IMG/VR virus record: IMGVR_UViG_3300044675_005591
Coordinates: 1-31,719 of that record
Source of the DNA: a virus
Taxonomy: Duplodnaviria; Caudoviricetes
DNA: 31,719 bases
Reading direction: 5' to 3' (one strand)
Part shown: positions 1,469 through 15,104 of the stretch, piece after piece
How the letters are laid out: each line of letters opens with the position of its first letter
Numbering within the stretch: position 1 is the first letter of the stretch
Notes under the pieces: model-generated
Databases searched by the model: none
The model's input: the letters and a program-made list of their open reading frames with translations, nothing else
What the model was told of the DNA's origin: nothing
Translations under genes and position numbers: made by a program

Positions 1469-1534
1469 GCGGAACAAATGTCGAAATCAGAATGAGGAAA
1501 CCAAAATGAGGAATGAGGAAGCGCCGAGGCGGTA

Positions 1535-1589
1535 TTTCTGGTTTTGCCGGTGCTATCCAGAAATGTGTTCTGGATAATCTTTGTTCGCC
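1535..1589 (+). other. attI-like site, locus 1 (crossover G/TT at 1583)
   Basis: 1535-1585 aligns without gaps to the reverse complement of 15333-15383 at 35/51 positions (manual count), ending at GTT. It heads an attC array. Confidence 0.65.
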
Positions 1590-1933
1590 TGATAGGGATT
1601 TCGTCCGAACAGGCAGTCAGCAGCGACAACGGAGTTGCCATTCATCGAGGTCCACATGCCTTCTTTGGCAAGTATCTCGATGATGGGCCTACCGATGCAG
1701 ATCGGGATTCTGGCGGCGTCTCGTTCGCGTTCCAGTTTTCTGGCATGGATACTCAGCGACAGATAATGTTCTGACCATTCGGTGGCATCCTTTGGCATGT
1801 GATCCACTAGAGCGGCATCAGTCTCAGGCGTCTCCGAAACAGAAGAACAAGCCTGCTGGAGACAACCCCCTTGGGCGTCTTGATCTTCGATAGCGTCTAG
1901 CTCCGGCGTGGGTGCATTGGTATTCGTTGTCAT
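1553..1933 (-). CDS. Cassette ORF, phage-type hypothetical protein (TPETDA...ARKLERERD), 126 aa
   Basis: Starts inside attC 1842-1975 and ends inside the attI-like site; ATGA overlap with the upstream ORF. Confidence 0.7.
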   Translation of the reverse strand: MTTNTNAPTPELDAIEDQDAQGGCLQQACSSVSETPETDAALVDHMPKDATEWSEHYLSLSIHARKLERERDAARIPICIGRPIIEILAKEGMWTSMNGNSVVAADCLFGRNPYQANKDYPEHISG

Positions 1934-1975
1934 TTTGTGGTTAGGTCAGGGGTTGTCTCATCAGGGTCGTTCTGC
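1842..1975 (+). other. attC-like site A
   Basis: GAAGAAC...GCTG[G]AGACAACCCC // GGGGTTGTCTCATC-AGGGTC-GTTCTGC: paired arms, one unpaired G in the left L box, AAC/GTT ends. Confidence 0.8.
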
Positions 1976-2208
1976 GGATACATGAAACTCGGGTAGGCCG
2001 TTCCTATCAAATCTTCCACCCGACAATGCCACTCATCGAGTTCGTGAGATTTTGCCCATGCCTCCATGATCGGCTCAACCAGCACGAGGATTTCCAGCAT
2101 AGCCTTTTCTCGGCACGCGCAGGCGTGGTGGTGAGTTGCGCCAACTGCCGAACAAGGCGAGGCAGCGCAACCCTCAGGAGCGGGCAAGTTTGTTTTTGGA
2201 TCAGGCAT
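1930..2208 (-). CDS. Cassette ORF, hypothetical protein with THHHACACRE motif, 92 aa
   Basis: ATG at 2208 lies in the loop of attC B and overlaps the upstream stop (ATGCCTGA); stop lies in the loop of attC A. Confidence 0.65.
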   Translation of the reverse strand: MPDPKTNLPAPEGCAASPCSAVGATHHHACACREKAMLEILVLVEPIMEAWAKSHELDEWHCRVEDLIGTAYPSFMYPQNDPDETTPDLTTK

Positions 2209-2249
2209 CTGGGGCGCTCCTTTCGGGTTGCTGCTCTTTTGCGTTGAGG
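2147..2249 (+). other. attC-like site B
   Basis: GCCGAAC-AAGGC-GAG[G]CAGC-GCAACCC // GGGTT-GCTGCTC-TTTTGC-GTTGAGG. Confidence 0.8.
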
Positions 2250-2497
2250 TCACAAAACATCTGGCATTGGCAGTCGGGGCATTGGCAAAGCGTCGAGTCA
2301 TATTCGCGATTGCATTGGAGGCAGCGGCGCCGGAGTCCATGCTGTGGGAGCAGTGGCATGCCAAACATGAGCCGGAACCGATTTCCTGCATGCAGCTTTG
2401 AGAGTGCGCGGTGATTGGCCGCGCGCTGTTTCGGCGTGGGAATTGGAACAAGATCGCCGCATGGGGGCTGATCGTTGGCGTGCATGGAATTAGGCAT
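2201..2497 (-). CDS. Cassette-associated ORF with Cys-rich (zinc-ribbon-like) C-terminus, 98 aa
   Basis: CLQC...CPDC motif; reads through attC C and stops inside attC B. Confidence 0.55.
   Translation of the reverse strand: MPNSMHANDQPPCGDLVPIPTPKQRAANHRALSKLHAGNRFRLMFGMPLLPQHGLRRRCLQCNREYDSTLCQCPDCQCQMFCDLNAKEQQPERSAPDA
2372..2480 (+). other. attC-like site C (degenerate)
   Basis: CCGGAAC-CGATT-TCCT[G]CAT-GCAGC // GCCGC-ATGGGGG-CTGATC-GTTGGCG; more mismatches than the other sites. Confidence 0.55.
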
Positions 2498-3045: not shown

Positions 3046-3117
3046 GGGAGACTGGGAGACTGGGAGACTGGGAGACTGGGAGACTGGGAGACTGGGAGAC
3101 TGGGAGACTGGGAGACT
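3046..3117. repeat. Perfect tandem repeat (GGGAGACT) x9
   Basis: Read directly; it ends 1 nt from the ATG (3044) of the 184-aa gene. Confidence 0.97.
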
Positions 3118-3145
3118 AGGCGGCGCGATGCAGTGCGGCGAAGGG

Positions 3146-3188: not shown

Positions 3189-4211
3189 TTAGGCGGCGCG
3201 TTGATGAGGGGTGAAGGGCACGACGTTGGAGGCTGGCTGTGGCAGAGAGTCGAGGGGACTGCGGATTTCGCTGGCGAATTGGCGGATGCAGTGGGTGTAG
3301 AGCTCGGTGGTTTCGAGATGAGCATGGCCTAGCAGTTCTTTGAGCTTGTGGATGCTGCCGCCGTTTTCGAGGTAGGCGGTGGCGAAGCTGTGGCGGAGGG
3401 TGTGGACGGTGATGCGTTTGCCGATGCGGGCGCGCTGGGCGGCTTTTTTGAGGGCTTTGGCGAGGGTGTCTTCGTGGAGGTGATGACGGCGAATGATGCC
3501 GGTTTCGGGGTCGCGTGAGGGCTGGCGGCCGGGGAAGAGGAATTGCCAGGGCCAGTCTTCGCCATAGCGGGGGTATTTGCGGGCGATGGAGTCTGGCAAC
3601 CAGACGCCGGGGAGGTTTTGGCGGCGATCGGCTTGCCAGAGGGCTTCAAGACGCTGGAAACGGGCTTGAAGGACGGGGATGAGGCTGGCGGGTAGGCAGG
3701 TGGTGCGGTCTTTGTCGCCTTTGCCGCCGCGGACGGTAATGAGGCGGGCGCTGAGGTCGATGTCGCGGATGCGGAGGCGGAGGCCTTCGTTGAGGCGGAG
3801 GCCGCTGCCGAACATGATCTGGGCGATGAGAAGGCAGGGACCTTCGAGATGATGGGCGAGGGCTTGGAATTCGCTGCTGGAGAGCCAGACGGGGAGGCGC
3901 TGTTTTTGGGGTGGTTTGACCCATTCGGGCATTTGACCCAAGGGGGTGCCGAGGCCGTGCTTGTAGGCGAAGACGAGGGCGTTGAGGGCCTGCTGCTGGG
4001 TTTTGGGTGAGCAGCCGCCGGGGCGTGTGGCGAGATGGGCGAGGTAGCGGCTGACTTTGGTTTCTGAGTCGGCTGCATGAAGGCCGGGCTGACTGAGGAG
4101 CCACAGGGCGTAACGTCGTGCCCAGCCTGCGTAGCATTGCCACGTTTTGCGGGCTTTGTGGTCGCGTTTGGCGGCACAGATGACTTGCTCGATGAATTCG
4201 GAGGTTGTCAT
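3189..4211 (-). CDS. intI: Integron integrase
   Basis: Tyrosine recombinase motifs GLRLNE, GKGDKDR, HTLRHSFAT, LLGH and TTELYTH, plus the IntI-specific insertion PGVWLPDSIARKYP...WPWQFLFP...RHHLHE. Confidence 0.93.
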   Translation of the reverse strand: MTTSEFIEQVICAAKRDHKARKTWQCYAGWARRYALWLLSQPGLHAADSETKVSRYLAHLATRPGGCSPKTQQQALNALVFAYKHGLGTPLGQMPEWVKPPQKQRLPVWLSSSEFQALAHHLEGPCLLIAQIMFGSGLRLNEGLRLRIRDIDLSARLITVRGGKGDKDRTTCLPASLIPVLQARFQRLEALWQADRRQNLPGVWLPDSIARKYPRYGEDWPWQFLFPGRQPSRDPETGIIRRHHLHEDTLAKALKKAAQRARIGKRITVHTLRHSFATAYLENGGSIHKLKELLGHAHLETTELYTHCIRQFASEIRSPLDSLPQPASNVVPFTPHQRAA

Positions 4212-4218
4212 GATAACT

Positions 4219-4252
4219 CAGAATGGAGGTGGGGTTAATTCAACTGTTAGGC
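4219..4252 (+). other. attI site, locus 2 (core GTTAGGC at 4246-4252)
   Basis: Canonical GTTRRRY about 35 bp upstream of the intI start. 4219-4240 matches the locus 3 site at 17/22 positions. The core is the exact complement of the next attC's GCCTAAC. Confidence 0.8.
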
Positions 4253-4585
4253 AGAAGGCACCGTATGCGGTCCATATTTACGAAGCCGGGTGAGCGTTCG
4301 CTCCATGTTCTCAACGTCGCGCTCCAGTTGCTCGGCCCACATCTTGTTTTTGCGGGTCGTTCGTCCGAGCGCAACGTCGTGGTCCCCGAGCAAAGAGCGT
4401 GTGTGCTCAAGGCCAGCGTCGAGCGCGTGAATCGCGGCGTATATGTCATCCTTCTGAACCGTCCAGAGTTCGGGTTGGTATTCGGTAATCATAAAATTAA
4501 AAACTGAGCCTAACAAGGCGATGGAGACAAGCCGAGTGCTTGCCACGTTTTCATTCGCGGGAGGTTTTTGGTTCGTGGGAATCAT
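4247..4585 (-). CDS. Cassette ORF, hypothetical coiled-coil protein (112 aa; start may be the internal MITEYQ)
   Basis: The TAA stop is part of the core site; the annotated start lies inside attC 4508-4615. Confidence 0.7.
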   Translation of the reverse strand: MIPTNQKPPANENVASTRLVSIALLGSVFNFMITEYQPELWTVQKDDIYAAIHALDAGLEHTRSLLGDHDVALGRTTRKNKMWAEQLERDVENMERTLTRLRKYGPHTVPSA

Positions 4586-4615
4586 TGGTTCGGCTGTCTC
4601 ACCTTGTCGTTCAGG
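4508..4615 (+). other. attC site 1
   Basis: GCCTAAC-AAGGC-GATG[G]AGA-CA[A]GCCGA // TCGGCTG-TCTCACC-TTGTC-GTTCAGG: R''/L''/L'/R' geometry with two extrahelical bases. Confidence 0.88.
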
Positions 4616-4651
4616 GCACTCACGTTAGTCTTTCGGACTTCGTGAGCGCCC
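4614..4651 (-). terminator. Stem-loop downstream of the 103-aa cassette gene
   Basis: GGGCACTCACG..AGTC-TTTCG-GACT..CGTGAGCGCCC; no clear U tract. Confidence 0.4.
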
Positions 4652-4664
4652 GTCACAGGTGGCG

Positions 4665-4976
4665 TTACATTTTCAGTCCGTCAGCCGTCGGCTCGATCAC
4701 GAGCGATGTCGGGTCTTTGCTGTGCGGGTATGGATTCGGCGTGTTCTGCGCCTTGAGGTCCATGCCGAGCCACATGATTGCTTCCTCGATCTTGGTCACG
4801 GCGAGGCTGCGTTCACGCGATGAGCGCACGGGATGGTCTGGCGCACGTTCTCCGGTGTAGCCTTTGTCACTGCCTTGTTTGAGGCGTTGGAGGCATTCAT
4901 CGAGGTCTTTGCGCCATTGCTTCGTCTGGAAGACAAAGGCTTCTTGCTGGTCTGGGTTTGGTGTCGTGGTTTCCAT
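4665..4976 (-). CDS. Cassette ORF, Acb2/Tad1-like helical-hairpin protein (candidate anti-defence nucleotide sponge), 103 aa
   Basis: SSRERSLAVTKIEEAIMWL resembles the Tad1 (SSRENACALTHVEEALMW) and Acb2-family helix, as recalled from memory. Confidence 0.6.
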   Translation of the reverse strand: METTTPNPDQQEAFVFQTKQWRKDLDECLQRLKQGSDKGYTGERAPDHPVRSSRERSLAVTKIEEAIMWLGMDLKAQNTPNPYPHSKDPTSLVIEPTADGLKM

Positions 4977-5024
4977 GTTATCGTTGTCGTTTGGTTTCTA
5001 CTTCGGCAGTCTGGGGTGCCGTGC

Positions 5025-5117
5025 CCTGAACCATGCGCTGGTGGCAACGGCTCGAAATTTATCTGTCACGGTTGCGGGGCCTCAGTGCTCGCCGTCGCCA
5101 CAGCTTCGGCGTTCTGC
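5025..5117 (+). other. attC site 2
   Basis: CCTGAAC-CATGC-GCTG[G]TGG-CAACGGC // GCCGTCG-CCACAGC-TTCGGC-GTTCTGC. GTGCCCTGAAC (5021-5031) is the exact complement of the cassette start GTTCAGGGCAC (4609-4619). Confidence 0.88.
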
Positions 5118-5431
5118 TCACCGACTAGCGCGACGCACTTCGAGTGCAGCAAGGTGCCTCCAAAGCCCGCTGCCATGATTGGCACGTTTTTCACCACTGA
5201 GCGCAAGACAGATTCGCATTCGTGCAAGCGGCGAGTCATTGCGTCCGGTGGCACATAAAAGTTGTGGCTGCATCCGCCGCAGCACACATCAGCAGCGTGA
5301 CCGTCGTAAAGCCAGAGTTTGCCGCAGTTTGGACATTCAACGAACTGCTTGACCACGAAAGCGGAACCAGCGGATGCAGGCAACCCAGTGGGTCGGTTTG
5401 TCGGAGTTTGAGAGTCGGTTTCTTCGGTCAT
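5066..5431 (-). CDS. Cassette ORF, zinc-finger-like protein (CPNC...CGGC), 121 aa
   Basis: Starts in the loop of attC 3 and stops in the loop of attC 2. Confidence 0.7.
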   Translation of the reverse strand: MTEETDSQTPTNRPTGLPASAGSAFVVKQFVECPNCGKLWLYDGHAADVCCGGCSHNFYVPPDAMTRRLHECESVLRSVVKNVPIMAAGFGGTLLHSKCVALVGEQNAEAVATASTEAPQP

Positions 5432-5497
5432 GTATTTGAGGCTGGTGAGTGTCTTTCGTGGTTATGCCCCAGGGTTGCCTGATCCTGGTCGTTCACT
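5361..5497 (+). other. attC site 3
   Basis: GCGGAAC-CAGCG-GAT[G]CAGG-CAACCC // GGGTTG-CCTGATC-CTGGTC-GTTCACT. Confidence 0.87.
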
Positions 5498-6644: not shown

Positions 6645-6650
6645 GGCGGT

Positions 6651-6742
6651 GTTTGTGAGGTGGTGGTTGCGTTTGCGGTGCAGTGCTCGGGATGAGCATG
6701 TGGGAGCTTAATGCGTGATTTGTTGCGTGCAATAATTATTTG
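6651..6742 (-). promoter_or_regulatory. Duplicated leftward promoter/leader, copy 1
   Basis: Minus strand TTGCAC-N16-TAAGCT followed by a TGCTC..GAGCA hairpin; closely similar to 8163-8261. Confidence 0.6.
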
Positions 6743-6766
6743 TTGAAATGTTTAACGGTGACGGAC

Positions 6767-8153: not shown

Positions 8154-8162
8154 GATGATGCT

Positions 8163-8261
8163 GTTTGTGATGTGGTTTGAAGTTCGCGTTTGCGGCGCGG
8201 TGCTCGGTGATGAGCACGTGGGGAGATTAATGCGGGAATTGTTGCGTGCAAGTATTAATTG
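8163..8261 (-). promoter_or_regulatory. Duplicated leftward promoter/leader, copy 2 (divergent control region)
   Basis: Minus strand TTGCAC-N16-TAATCT, then hairpin GTGCTC-ATCACC-GAGCAC; AT-rich. Confidence 0.6.
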
Positions 8262-8342
8262 CAGGAAAATGTTGTTTGCGTCTTTTTGGTTGACTATGGG
8301 GTAACCTGTGTAATTCTTCGGCGTATCCGTTTTCTCAACGCT

Positions 8343-10906: not shown

Positions 10907-11886
10907 TGCACAAGTATTGGAGACACATCGGCGATTACGCCAAGGACACTCGGCACCTCTCCATCCTGGAGCACGGCGCTTTCACCCTCATGCTCGACTG
11001 GTGCTATGCCTCCGAAAAGCCGCTGCCCGAGGATGAAAAGGTGCTTTTCCGGCTTTGTGGAGCCTTCGACAAGGCCGAACAGAAGGCCGTGTTGGCTGTT
11101 CGCGATGAATTTTTCACCCGCGAGCAGTCCGGCTGGACACAGAAACGCGTGCTGGAAGAGATCGCTGATTTCCGCGACAAGCAGGCCAAAGCCAAGAAGG
11201 CAGCAGACGAAAGTTGGAAGAGCAGGCGCAATGCGGACGCAATGCAGACGCATAGCGAACGCATCCAAAATGCAGAGTCGAATGCAATGCCTCGCGCGCA
11301 CGTTCCAACAACCAACAACCAACAACCAGCAACCAATCTACTCTTGCTCGCACCTCACGGTGCTGAGCCGACGGCCGATGATCCCGAAGGCTCCGCCGCA
11401 GCCACCCCAGAAGGTTCTGGCGAAAAAAAGAAAAGGGGGGCGGCGGTGGAAGACTTGGCCTGGGCACCGGACACGGGTTGGACGGGCTTCACGGACACGC
11501 TCATGGACGAGCTGGCTGGCGCTTACCCGGCCTGCGACATCCGGCGGCAGATGCTTGCCATGGAGCAGTGGTTGAAGGCGAACAAGGCCAAGGCTCGCAA
11601 GAGCAACTGGCGCAAGTTCGTCACCAACTGGCTCGCCAAGGAGCAGGATCGCGGTGGTGATCTGCGCGGCAAGACACCCTTCCAAGCCTTCTCGGATAGC
11701 TTTGGCGCGAAAAAAGAAGCGCCGCCGCTCACGGTGGAGCTTCCGCCGGACGGCTACGAGCAGGCCATGACCGCTCTTTGGGGCGATGGCTGGGAGGGCA
11801 CCGTGCCCGGCTGGCCGCAAATGGTCGCCAGTGACAAAGCACAGGTCCGCCGCTGGCTCGCTCAGCATGGGAAGGAGGCGGCGTGA
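10906..11886 (+). CDS. YdaU/DUF1376 family phage replication protein
   Basis: N-terminus MHKYWRHIGDYAKDTRHLSILEHGAFTLMLDWCYASEKPLP; upstream of a DnaB gene. Confidence 0.8.
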   Translation: MHKYWRHIGDYAKDTRHLSILEHGAFTLMLDWCYASEKPLPEDEKVLFRLCGAFDKAEQKAVLAVRDEFFTREQSGWTQKRVLEEIADFRDKQAKAKKAADESWKSRRNADAMQTHSERIQNAESNAMPRAHVPTTNNQQPATNLLLLAPHGAEPTADDPEGSAAATPEGSGEKKKRGAAVEDLAWAPDTGWTGFTDTLMDELAGAYPACDIRRQMLAMEQWLKANKAKARKSNWRKFVTNWLAKEQDRGGDLRGKTPFQAFSDSFGAKKEAPPLTVELPPDGYEQAMTALWGDGWEGTVPGWPQMVASDKAQVRRWLAQHGKEAA

Positions 11887-12890
11887 ATGAGCTGGCTCTT
11901 TTCGCGGGCGCTGGTGGTGGCATTCTCGGAGGGAAGCTCCTGGGATGGCGCTGCGTGTGCGCTGTGGAGTGGGATGCCTATGCCGCAAGCGTGCTTGTGG
12001 CACGGCAAAACGATGGATGCCTGGAGCCGTTTCCCATCTGGGATGACGTGCGCACCTTTGACGGAGGTGCATGGCGAGGCCGTGTTGACGTGGTTTCTGG
12101 CGGGTTTCCCTGCCAGGACATTTCCTGCGCTGGCAAAGGAGCGGGCATCGATGGGGAGCGAAGTGGGATGTGGGTGGAGATGGCCCGGATCATCGGTGAG
12201 GTGGGACCGCGATACGTGCTCGTGGAGAACTCGCCAATGCTCACTGTTCGGGGGCTTGGAACAGTTCTCGGGAACTTGGCCTCGCTGGGGTATGATGCGA
12301 TCTGGGGAGTGCTGGGAGCTGATGATGCCGGAGCTCCACACCGACGGAAACGAATCTGGATCATGGGATGGCGAAGAGACGTGGCAGACGCCGACGGCGC
12401 AGGATGCGAATGGTCGCACGCACCACAATCAACGCGATGGCTCCAAGCGTGCGAGCCTGCTGGGGCAGGTGGCGATGTGGCCAACGGTGCGCAGCAGCGA
12501 CGGAGAGAGAGGTGGACGCGGCGATTTGATCCAAGCGGTGCGGGGCAATCCAAACAGGCATTACAAACTCTGGCAGACGCCAGTGGCGGACGATGCGGTG
12601 GACCGCAAAACAGGGAAGTGGAACTCGCGAGGCGAGGCCAAGTTGTCTGCTCAAGTCAAGATGCTACCAACGCCAACGGTGCAGGATGCGAGCAACAACG
12701 GCGGTCCTGCTCAGATGGAGCGGAATGCACTGCCGCTAAATGCGGTGGCTGGTGGTGCGCTGAACCCGACGTGGGTCGAGTGGCTGATGGGGTGGCCGCT
12801 CGGGTGGACCGATTGCGGTGCCTCGGCAACGGACAAGTTCCGGCAGTGGTGCGGCTCGCATGGCAAACCTTTAACCAAATCAACGCATGA
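11883..12890 (+). CDS. DNA (cytosine-5) methyltransferase, catalytic polypeptide
   Basis: Motif I FAGAGG, IV GGFPCQD, VI ENSP, VIII HRRKRIW, X LRCLGNGQVP. Confidence 0.9.
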   Translation: MNELALFAGAGGGILGGKLLGWRCVCAVEWDAYAASVLVARQNDGCLEPFPIWDDVRTFDGGAWRGRVDVVSGGFPCQDISCAGKGAGIDGERSGMWVEMARIIGEVGPRYVLVENSPMLTVRGLGTVLGNLASLGYDAIWGVLGADDAGAPHRRKRIWIMGWRRDVADADGAGCEWSHAPQSTRWLQACEPAGAGGDVANGAQQRRRERWTRRFDPSGAGQSKQALQTLADASGGRCGGPQNREVELARRGQVVCSSQDATNANGAGCEQQRRSCSDGAECTAAKCGGWWCAEPDVGRVADGVAARVDRLRCLGNGQVPAVVRLAWQTFNQINA

Positions 12891-14992: not shown

Positions 14993-15010
14993 ACTGTGAA
15001 GGGAAATGCA

Positions 15011-15104
15011 CGCCAACCGTCGAAAATCAGGCGACGGCGAGCGCCAAGCCTGATTTGCACGACAGATGATCTTCGAGCCGCGGCCTGCATTTTCTTTGTT
15101 CAGC
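15011..15104 (-). other. attC-like site, locus 3
   Basis: Minus strand GCTGAAC-AAAGA-AAAT[G]CAGG-CCGCGGC // GCCGTCG-CCTGATTT-TCGACG-GTTGGCG; shares CGGCTCGAA..ATCTGTC and GCTCGCCGTCGCC with attC 2. Confidence 0.78.

What the first reader, a model, noticed from the sequence alone, without database searches (positions are those of the whole stretch)
1842..2249. attC sites are translated and carry start/stop couplings in their loops
Seen: the ATGA overlap at 1930-1933 sits in the loop of attC A, and ATGCCTGA at 2201-2208 sits in the loop of attC B. Starts at 4585 and 5431 and a stop at 5066 also lie inside attCs. The arms therefore encode recurrent peptide ends: N-terminal GCLQQACSS, GCAASPCSA, GLPASAGSA and C-terminal QNDPDETTP, LNAKEQQP, QNAEAVATA, QANKDYP, with the crossover AAC read as Asn in the same frame. 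Inference: each cassette brings its start in its own attC and borrows its stop from the neighbouring site, so shuffling keeps translational coupling and changes C-terminal tails.
Basis: partly seen in the sequence, partly recalled or inferred. Interest (0 to 1): 0.82.

Follow-up and report, generated by a model that had tools for sequence, protein, structure and literature searches.

The report
Phage integron with in-frame coding attC
A lake phage carries its own gene-shuffling integron in which the genes run backwards through the recombination hairpins, so that swapping a cassette changes a protein's short tail exactly at one asparagine codon and likely keeps neighbouring genes translationally linked.

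Summary
The window is a temperate phage with an intact integron integrase, two attI sites and six attC sites. Cassette genes lie on the attC bottom strand, opposite to bacterial integrons.

Cassettes B and E, and the gene upstream of B, recur in other phages with other neighbours, and their tails switch at the crossover Asn. 17 of 34 B homologues have that Asn, each with a different tail. Lake contigs place cassette E at a distant sixth site.

Across 126 phage attC clusters, ORFs enter in the Asn frame in 88 (other frames 14, 11), and that frame's stop lies near a loop ATG in 60, versus 0 of 53 host-order chromosomal sites.

Limits: cassette C has its own stop, D its own start and stop; the N-terminal frame is not fixed; one tail comes from attI; translation and coupling are inferred, with no RNA or proteomic data.

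Phage integrons are published; this layout was not found in 10 searches. This scan noted it before on other phages; new here are natural switches, a phage integrase clade and host controls.

The parts
1530..1589 (-). attI2: second, orphan attI (type found before intI in L292-L299). Crossover GTT 1583-1585; encodes tail N-KDYPEHISG-stop
1553..1933 (-). ORF A (126 aa): ATG in loop of attC A, Asn117 at the attI2 crossover; cassette A = 1584-1969
1842..1975 (+). attC A (top strand +). Crossover GTT 1969-1971; ATGA overlap 1930-1933 in loop
1930..2208 (-). ORF B (92 aa): ATG in loop of attC B, stop in attC A; cassette B = 1970-2243 (274 bp, 98% identical in L299)
2147..2249 (+). attC B. Crossover GTT 2243-2245; ATGCCTGA 2201-2208; AGGAG 9 nt before the ATG
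2201..2497 (-). 98-aa gene upstream of the array; its tail is supplied by whichever attC follows (differs in L004)
3189..4211 (-). Intact integron integrase IntI (340 aa), phage clade
4212..4252 (-). attI1, cognate to the window IntI. Crossover GTT 4246-4248; Asn-Ser-stop in the Asn frame
4247..4585 (-). ORF C (112 aa): ATG in loop of attC C (ATGA 4582-4585), own TAA on the crossover; cassette C = 4247-4609
4508..4615 (+). attC C; R'' GCCTAAC matches GTTAGGC at attI1
4665..4976 (-). ORF D (103 aa), Acb2/Tad1 hairpin domain, candidate anti-defence sponge; own start and stop; cassette D = 4610-5111
4998..5069 (-). 23-aa leader opened by GTG overlapping the stop of ORF E (GTGA) in attC D; translation inferred
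5025..5117 (+). attC D, of a family also found in host-order chromosomal integrons
5066..5431 (-). ORF E (121 aa): ATG in attC E (ATGA 5428-5431), stop in attC D; cassette E = 5112-5491
5361..5497 (+). attC E. Crossover GTT 5491-5493
5428..5496 (-). 22-aa relay ORF: GTG overlapping the stop of the upstream fixed gene, then Asn, ending in the ATGA of ORF E; translation inferred
15006..15104 (+). Site 6: solitary attC 15011-15104 (bottom strand +, crossover AAC 15015-15017) with a leader ATG-CAC-GCC-AAC in the Asn frame; receives cassette E in other population members

Best explanation
This is a phage-resident integron whose cassette genes lie on the attC bottom strand, cross the A|AC crossover as an Asn codon and take their stop from the next attC or attI, so that shuffling swaps short C-terminal tails, while the stop/start overlaps in the loops likely keep the operon translationally coupled. 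Shown: (1) intact IntI, attI and attC anatomy; (2) exact cassette units moving between phages and between sites of this phage, with breakpoints at the AAC; (3) tail switches at the Asn; (4) a shared incoming frame and loop starts in phage sites but not in host-order chromosomal sites. Inferred: (5) the phage IntI does the shuffling by the usual folded bottom-strand route; (6) the array is transcribed from the phage operon upstream of the cassettes, not from a Pc in intI; (7) ribosomes stop and restart at ATGA/GTGA overlaps, with short relay ORFs at array heads and in start-less attCs; (8) the shared frame is kept by selection because it makes any cassette order give terminated, coupled genes, and the tails themselves are probably neutral. 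Cargo is accessory and counter-defence genes.
For: IntI scores 325.9 bits on TIGR02249 (cut-off 265) with catalytic motifs intact. Breakpoints lie at crossovers in L004 and in lake contigs. Joints 5111/15018 (2 runs) and 5493/15014 (1 run) place cassette E at site 6. Tail switches: B in L299, E in L325, the 98-aa gene in L004, and two different ORFs sharing the attI2 tail. 7 of 153 upstream clusters occur with more than one attC family; all 7 are open in the Asn frame and stop inside the site. 17 of 34 B homologues have Asn at the crossover column, each with a different tail. Phage sites (n=126): incoming ORF of 40+ codons 88/14/11 by frame, stop inside 115/59/63, loop ATG opening the next ORF 77, Asn-frame stop near that ATG 60, exact ATGA 38. 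The IntI-selected subset (n=57) gives 39/5/4, 54/25/29, 36, 27, 17. Host-order chromosomal sites (n=53): 16/7/6, 43/36/35, 5, 0, 0. Frame-shift nulls give incoming 20 and 22 versus 88, and outgoing 39 and 31 versus 77. 20 of 20 distinct attI sequences (19 phage, 1 cellular) have an Asn-frame stop within 12 codons. The conserved N-terminal motifs of families A and B lie before any start outside the attC, as do 3 of 10 Pfam domains, with 2 more marginal.
Against: There are no expression data. C and D do not follow the full rule, and 30 of 126 phage sites are preceded by an ORF with its own stop at the crossover. An Asn-frame stop inside the site is nearly as common in host-order attCs (43 of 53 versus 115 of 126, p=0.07), so that part may be inherited. 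Host sites also show some Asn-frame excess of incoming ORFs (16/7/6), because TGA|AC and TAA|C close the other frames. Only 14 of 77 loop ATGs have an SD-like motif. 39 of 77 have an ATG/GTG, and 52 of 77 an ATG/GTG/TTG, within 10 codons after the site. Clusters share ancestry, so p-values overstate independence. The detector has false positives (one lies inside a methylase gene).
Confidence: 0.8

Rival explanations
1. The layout is a by-product of how cassettes form and of phage operon polarity: a gene captured at an in-frame AAC survives only if a stop follows, and the overlap is simply the cassette's own stop and start meeting on the excised circle. Coupling between neighbours is incidental.
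For: On the excised circle the Asn-frame stop does meet the cassette's own ATG (follows from the anatomy). Host-type attCs already carry many stops. Non-cassette homologues of A and B start where the arm ends and run past the Asn. Tails are unconserved, median 13 aa.
Against: It does not explain why all cassettes use one frame (88/14/11), why attI sites of two integrase subclades keep an Asn-frame stop, or why sites whose present neighbour does not read in (C, E, site 6) still have the overlap and relay starts in that frame.
Confidence: 0.12
2. The C-terminal read-through is real but most true starts lie outside the attC; loop ATGs are gene-caller extensions.
For: External ATG/GTG within 10 codons in 39 of 77. 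Databases hold shorter calls for C (P0157) and for B homologues (P0135, P0137). Few SD motifs.
Against: In-frame loop ATGs in 77 of 126 versus 39/31 in shifted nulls and 5 of 53 in host sites. Family motifs of A and B and three Pfam domains precede any external start. ORF C does have an ATG just after its arm, so C may fit this rival.
Confidence: 0.06
3. The hairpins are ordinary cassettes read in the classical sense (gene followed by its own attC), with strand polarity mis-assigned.
For: The same gene body occurs with different attCs joined at the other core (GTT) in 6 of 150 body clusters, 2 of them sharply.
Against: Bulges lie on the arm expected for top strand = +, and the same scan of 101 cellular sites classical. 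Recent exchanges all break at the AAC. attI lies at the AAC side. Chromosomal array L423 holds a classical cassette and reversed ones with the same attC polarity.
Confidence: 0.02

Closest known systems
Integrons and CALINs in phage genomes (Qi et al. 2023, PMC9892861; read abstract, methods and results to section 3.4, plus term search; supplements not opened)
   Same: intI, attI and attC arrays inside phage genomes; phage attCs shown to recombine with IntI1; methyltransferase cargo.
   Different: Those are pieces of host integrons or IntI-less arrays. The main text has 0 occurrences of 'start codon' and does not describe reversed genes, coding attCs or a fixed crossover frame. Here a phage-specific IntI clade sits among phage genes with reversed, coding cassettes.
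ORF-11/ORF-18 of attI1 and short ORFs in attC in class 1 integrons (review PMC8876359; passages and section 3.2 read)
   Same: A reading frame crosses the crossover and borrows its stop from the incoming cassette; termination-reinitiation helps the next gene.
   Different: There it is a short leader on the top strand at attI or an occasional attC peptide. Here the cargo genes themselves begin and end within attC/attI, on the bottom strand, at most junctions.
Synthetic attC sites embedded in protein linkers and lacZ (Nivina et al. 2020, PMC7439510; passages read)
   Same: attC can double as coding sequence and still recombine; crossover between A and C of RYYYAAC on the bottom strand.
   Different: Engineered, single sites; this is a natural population-wide system.
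Chromosomal integrons of the order holding G001 (Verrucomicrobiaceae by the record title of L214)
   Same: Same attC families and GAAC/GTTC cores; the phage IntI clade nests among their integrases.
   Different: Mostly classical layout; Asn-frame stop near a loop ATG in 0 of 53.

Membership tests
Complete integron | IntI-type tyrosine recombinase | tested here: met
   TIGR02249 325.9 bits over cut-off 265; R139, K164, H270, R273, H296, Y305 present
Complete integron | attI next to the 5' end of intI with cassettes inserted there | tested here: met
   Conserved site 37 nt before the intI ATG with different cassettes in L002, L003, L004, L064
Complete integron | attC sites with R and L boxes and extrahelical bases | tested here: met
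   Six sites; same families in host chromosomal arrays; folding z-scores weak
Complete integron | Cassettes move as units bounded at the R' core (A|AC on the bottom strand) | tested here: met
Complete integron | IntI recombines the folded bottom strand | not testable with these tools
   Needs a recombination assay
Classical integron cassette layout | Gene on the top strand, ending before its own attC, which stays non-coding | tested here: not met
   Genes on the bottom strand, starting in their own attC
Classical integron cassette layout | Array transcribed from Pc in intI/attI, divergent from intI | not tested
   No promoter scan or RNA data; cassette genes point towards intI, so a divergent Pc would read them antisense (from the sequence)
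CALIN | No integron integrase nearby | tested here: not met
   Intact intI between the two arrays
Acb2/Tad1 anti-defence sponges (ORF D) | Hairpin domain match | tested here: met
   PF24729 28.7 bits over cut-off 27; homologue in L294 30.7 bits; PDB Tad1 matches only E 0.1-0.4
Acb2/Tad1 anti-defence sponges (ORF D) | Binds cyclic nucleotide signals | not testable with these tools
   No fold or binding test was run

The most novel reading that the evidence does not exclude
These phages are a cassette factory: the attC acts as a portable stop/start junction that IntI inserts into native phage genes at a GTT near the start and an Asn codon near the end, turning them into cassettes with a universal reading-frame interface, and such cassettes then enter host chromosomal integrons. 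This would be a visible route for the unsolved origin of integron cassettes and a natural protein-tail shuffling system. Basis: non-cassette homologues begin where the arm ends and run past the Asn; one attC family joins many unrelated bodies at the GTT core, and one body joins unrelated attCs there; reversed cassettes sit in chromosomal array L423.
Probability: 0.3. Interest if true: 0.92.

Novelty: new variant of a known kind. Interest (0 to 1): 0.78.

Why it matters
attC sites are treated as non-coding spacers that hinder translation of downstream cassettes, and integrases in phages as host leftovers. Here phages keep their own integrase clade and a shared pool of cassettes (methyltransferases, Acb2/Tad1, Lar) built so that any order would still give terminated, coupled genes. 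It is the natural counterpart of engineered protein-embedded attC sites. Because cassette and non-cassette forms of the same genes coexist, it offers a direct handle on how cassettes are made.

Tried and rejected
Rfam and ARAGORN: nothing in the window. Pfam/PHROGs: no family for ORFs A, B, C, E or the 98-aa gene (E has only a sub-threshold DUF5817 hit); 120 of 140 cassette ORFs from relatives have no Pfam hit. The repeat finder missed the attCs. The attI motif scan returned 121 loci, nearly all chance; only L049, L064, L101 and L125 were useful. Metagenome and genome scans with the IntI alignment returned generic integrases, which I used as controls. Isolated phage records hold only 9 distant integrases, under 42% identity. 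Sequencing runs: no RNA holder listed, which says nothing on expression. The careful tree did not finish; quick trees only, and the first lacked the window's own row through de-duplication. L440 (phage-type genes) and L423 (mixed array) were dropped from the host control; with them the set is 25/9/9 incoming and 21 outgoing of 63. Rejected: conserved peptide motifs as functional tags (no conservation after the Asn); a fixed N-terminal frame; classical polarity. Literature: 10 full-text searches found no description of this layout. Most subscription papers are not in the library, papers other than the three cited were seen only as listings, and the supplements of Qi et al. were not opened and may show reversed genes in their annotations.

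Full report
Setting. The window is a virus record with temperate-phage genes: DnaB, a C5 methylase, an SU10 capsid protein and a large terminase. Bases 1-63 look like a tRNA 3' end and 185-1468 like a tyrosine recombinase; both are by eye, with no family hit. At 3189-4211 lies an intact integron integrase. About 33 database proteins are 55-99% identical to it before a drop to about 50%. In a quick tree it falls in an 18-row group (SH-aLRT 98) with IntIs from viral contigs, one IntI from a phage-like MAG contig (L385) and database proteins of unknown context, nested among integrases from the order of G001. A second, smaller phage group lies elsewhere. The host is inferred to be verrucomicrobial from this and from shared attC families. 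The 22 best-holding runs are lake-water metagenomes.

Observation. All stated coordinates and peptides are present. Five attCs have their top strand on +, so all cassette ORFs are on the bottom strand. They form two arrays: C-D-E at attI1 beside intI, and A-B at attI2, which matches the attI of the sister integrase subclade. A sixth attC lies at 15011-15104, again with genes on its bottom strand. In every site the frame that reads the crossover AAC as Asn meets a stop within 21 codons. C brings its start but has its own stop. D has its own start and stop, with only a 23-aa leader opened in its attC.

Natural shuffling. L004 (93-97% identical) changes cassettes exactly at the four outer crossovers. 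There the 98-aa gene ends CDLN-VPALAASPAENSTEAKDSQNGH instead of CDLN-AKEQQPERSAPDA, and an unrelated ORF shares the attI2 tail N-KDYPEHISG. Cassette B occurs as the same 274-bp unit (98%) in L299, whose IntI is 46% identical, and ends N-SDYPEQLSR at attI instead of N-DPDETTPDLTTK. Cassette E is identical in L325 but is followed by an extra cassette and ends N-AGTHPLRAGDAQSQHSKP. Of 153 upstream-sequence clusters, 7 occur with more than one attC family; all 7 are open in the Asn frame and stop inside the site. Identity between such pairs collapses right after the AAC. Of 34 database homologues of B, 17 have Asn in that column with 17 different tails, and 2 more have it one position earlier. 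For A, 9 of 116 homologues covering the region have it, mainly the closest; most others run on without it. In lake contigs, joints 5111/15018 (2 of 4 runs) and 5493/15014 (1 of 4) share three letters and place cassette E inside site 6. These are metagenome contigs and may come from sister strains.

Generality and controls. I scanned 99 phage loci, 160 cellular IntI loci and 36 stretches from the host order with one frame-blind detector and clustered sites at 80% identity. Counts by frame (Asn frame first):
- Phage, n=126: incoming ORFs 88/14/11, stops inside 115/59/63, loop ATG opening the next ORF 77, Asn-frame stop within -14 to +8 nt of it 60, exact ATGA 38.
- Phage loci chosen by IntI only, n=57: the same pattern.
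- General cellular, n=101: 19/22/8, 44/41/62, 12, 5, 3.
- Host order without L440 and L423, n=53: 16/7/6, 43/36/35, 5, 0, 0.
Shifting frames in silico drops incoming ORFs to 20 and 22 and outgoing to 39 and 31. All 20 distinct attI sequences examined (19 phage, 1 cellular) stop the Asn frame within 12 codons, versus 5 and 16 for the other frames. The outgoing frame is not fixed (26/44/18), as expected if only the shared interface is constrained.

Results against. The Asn-frame stop alone does not separate phage from host sites (p=0.07). Host sites show some Asn-frame excess too. 30 of 126 phage sites follow a gene with its own stop. Clusters are related, so p-values overstate. At least one phage hit is false.

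Are the loop starts real? For B, homologues that lack the arm-encoded extension begin at the THHHAC motif, which lies before the first external ATG. For A, family similarity starts at residue 33, before the first external GTG (43) and ATG (46). Among 10 valid Pfam-domain ORFs with loop ATGs, 3 have no external start before the domain, 2 are marginal and 5 have one. Overall 21 of 77 have an external ATG, and 39 of 77 an ATG/GTG, within 10 codons. Loop starts are therefore required in some cassettes, probable in most, and unproven.

Mechanism. Shown: site anatomy, unit boundaries, tail switches, frame bias. Inferred: the phage IntI recombines folded bottom strands at A|AC (crossover position as stated in PMC7439510), rebuilding the Asn codon at each event. 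The upstream gene then runs 2-26 codons (5th-95th percentile) into the new arm and stops at or near the ATG of the new cassette, where the ribosome would restart. Array heads supply relay starts in the same frame (GTG-AAC at 5496, ATG-AAC in L004, ATG-CAC-GCC-AAC at site 6). This is ORF-11-type coupling (PMC8876359) generalised to most junctions and reversed. Because the genes point towards intI, the phage operon rather than a Pc would transcribe them. Cargo with Pfam hits (20 of 140 ORFs scanned, out of 150 extracted) is mostly DNA methyltransferases (12), plus Acb2/Tad1, Lar, RNA ligase and PAPS reductase. This suggests rapid tuning of counter-defence genes.

Comparison and novelty. It is a member of the integron family by integrase, attI, attC and crossover, but not of the classical cassette layout, and it is not a CALIN. 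Phage integrons are published (PMC9892861); the reversed, coding, fixed-frame design was not found in 10 searches. Earlier notes of this scan report the same layout on other phages. They are unchecked, did not set my reading (stated), and gave the lead to Qi et al. This window adds same-cassette tail switches, relocation within one phage population, a resident phage IntI clade with two attI types, and a host-order control. Verdict: new variant of a known kind, interest 0.78.

Noticed in passing
window 15006-15104: Solitary sixth attC far from intI, between replication and packaging genes, with a leader ORF in the Asn frame; holds cassette E in other population members.
   Followed up: yes
window 1530-1585: Orphan attI of the sister integrase subclade, used as an insertion site although the phage encodes only the other IntI.
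   Followed up: partly
window 2444-2485 (minus strand): The 98-aa gene begins with the same 12-mer leader as site 6, followed by a 30-nt AAC...GTT palindrome; possibly a collapsed attC, making this gene a fixed former cassette.
   Followed up: no
window joint 1922/5139: In 4 of the 6 runs laid (X16, X18, X21, X22), cassette E is fused to ORF A at a 4-nt microhomology that removes half of attC A; in frame by my reading, and not at an IntI crossover.
   Followed up: partly
L294 2429-2525 vs L298 7693-7782; L303 vs L359: The same cassette body is joined to unrelated attCs exactly at the R'' GTT core, suggesting top-strand recombination or repeated capture.
   Followed up: partly
L423 8700-10400 (G019): Array beside a host-type IntI, with no phage genes recognised nearby, holding one classical cassette and reversed ones, one homologous to a phage HTH cassette.
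   Followed up: partly
L440 900-4500 (G001:C15): Phage-like region in a Verrucomicrobiaceae MAG with a phage-clade IntI and seven reversed attCs, including duplicated cassettes.
   Followed up: partly
L004 6001-6468; L064 5019-5060: intI is internally deleted in L004 and reduced to a stub in L064, where the array sits among tail genes; lake contigs show another deletion, 3777/4199. Arrays persist without their own integrase.
   Followed up: no
window 4665-4976: Acb2/Tad1-like cassette D is shared with L318, L325 and L294; candidate counter-defence gene.
   Followed up: partly
window 3046-3120: Tandem 8-nt repeat (GGGAGACT, about 9 copies) right after the intI stop; absent in L004 and variable in lake contigs.
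   Followed up: no
window 11881-12884: The C5 methylase gene is cleanly absent in 3 of 4 runs (joint 11880/12885); no attC was detected there.
   Followed up: no
window 6650-6752 and 8162-8273: Two 80% identical copies of an intergenic element with AT-rich cores in the control region.
   Followed up: no
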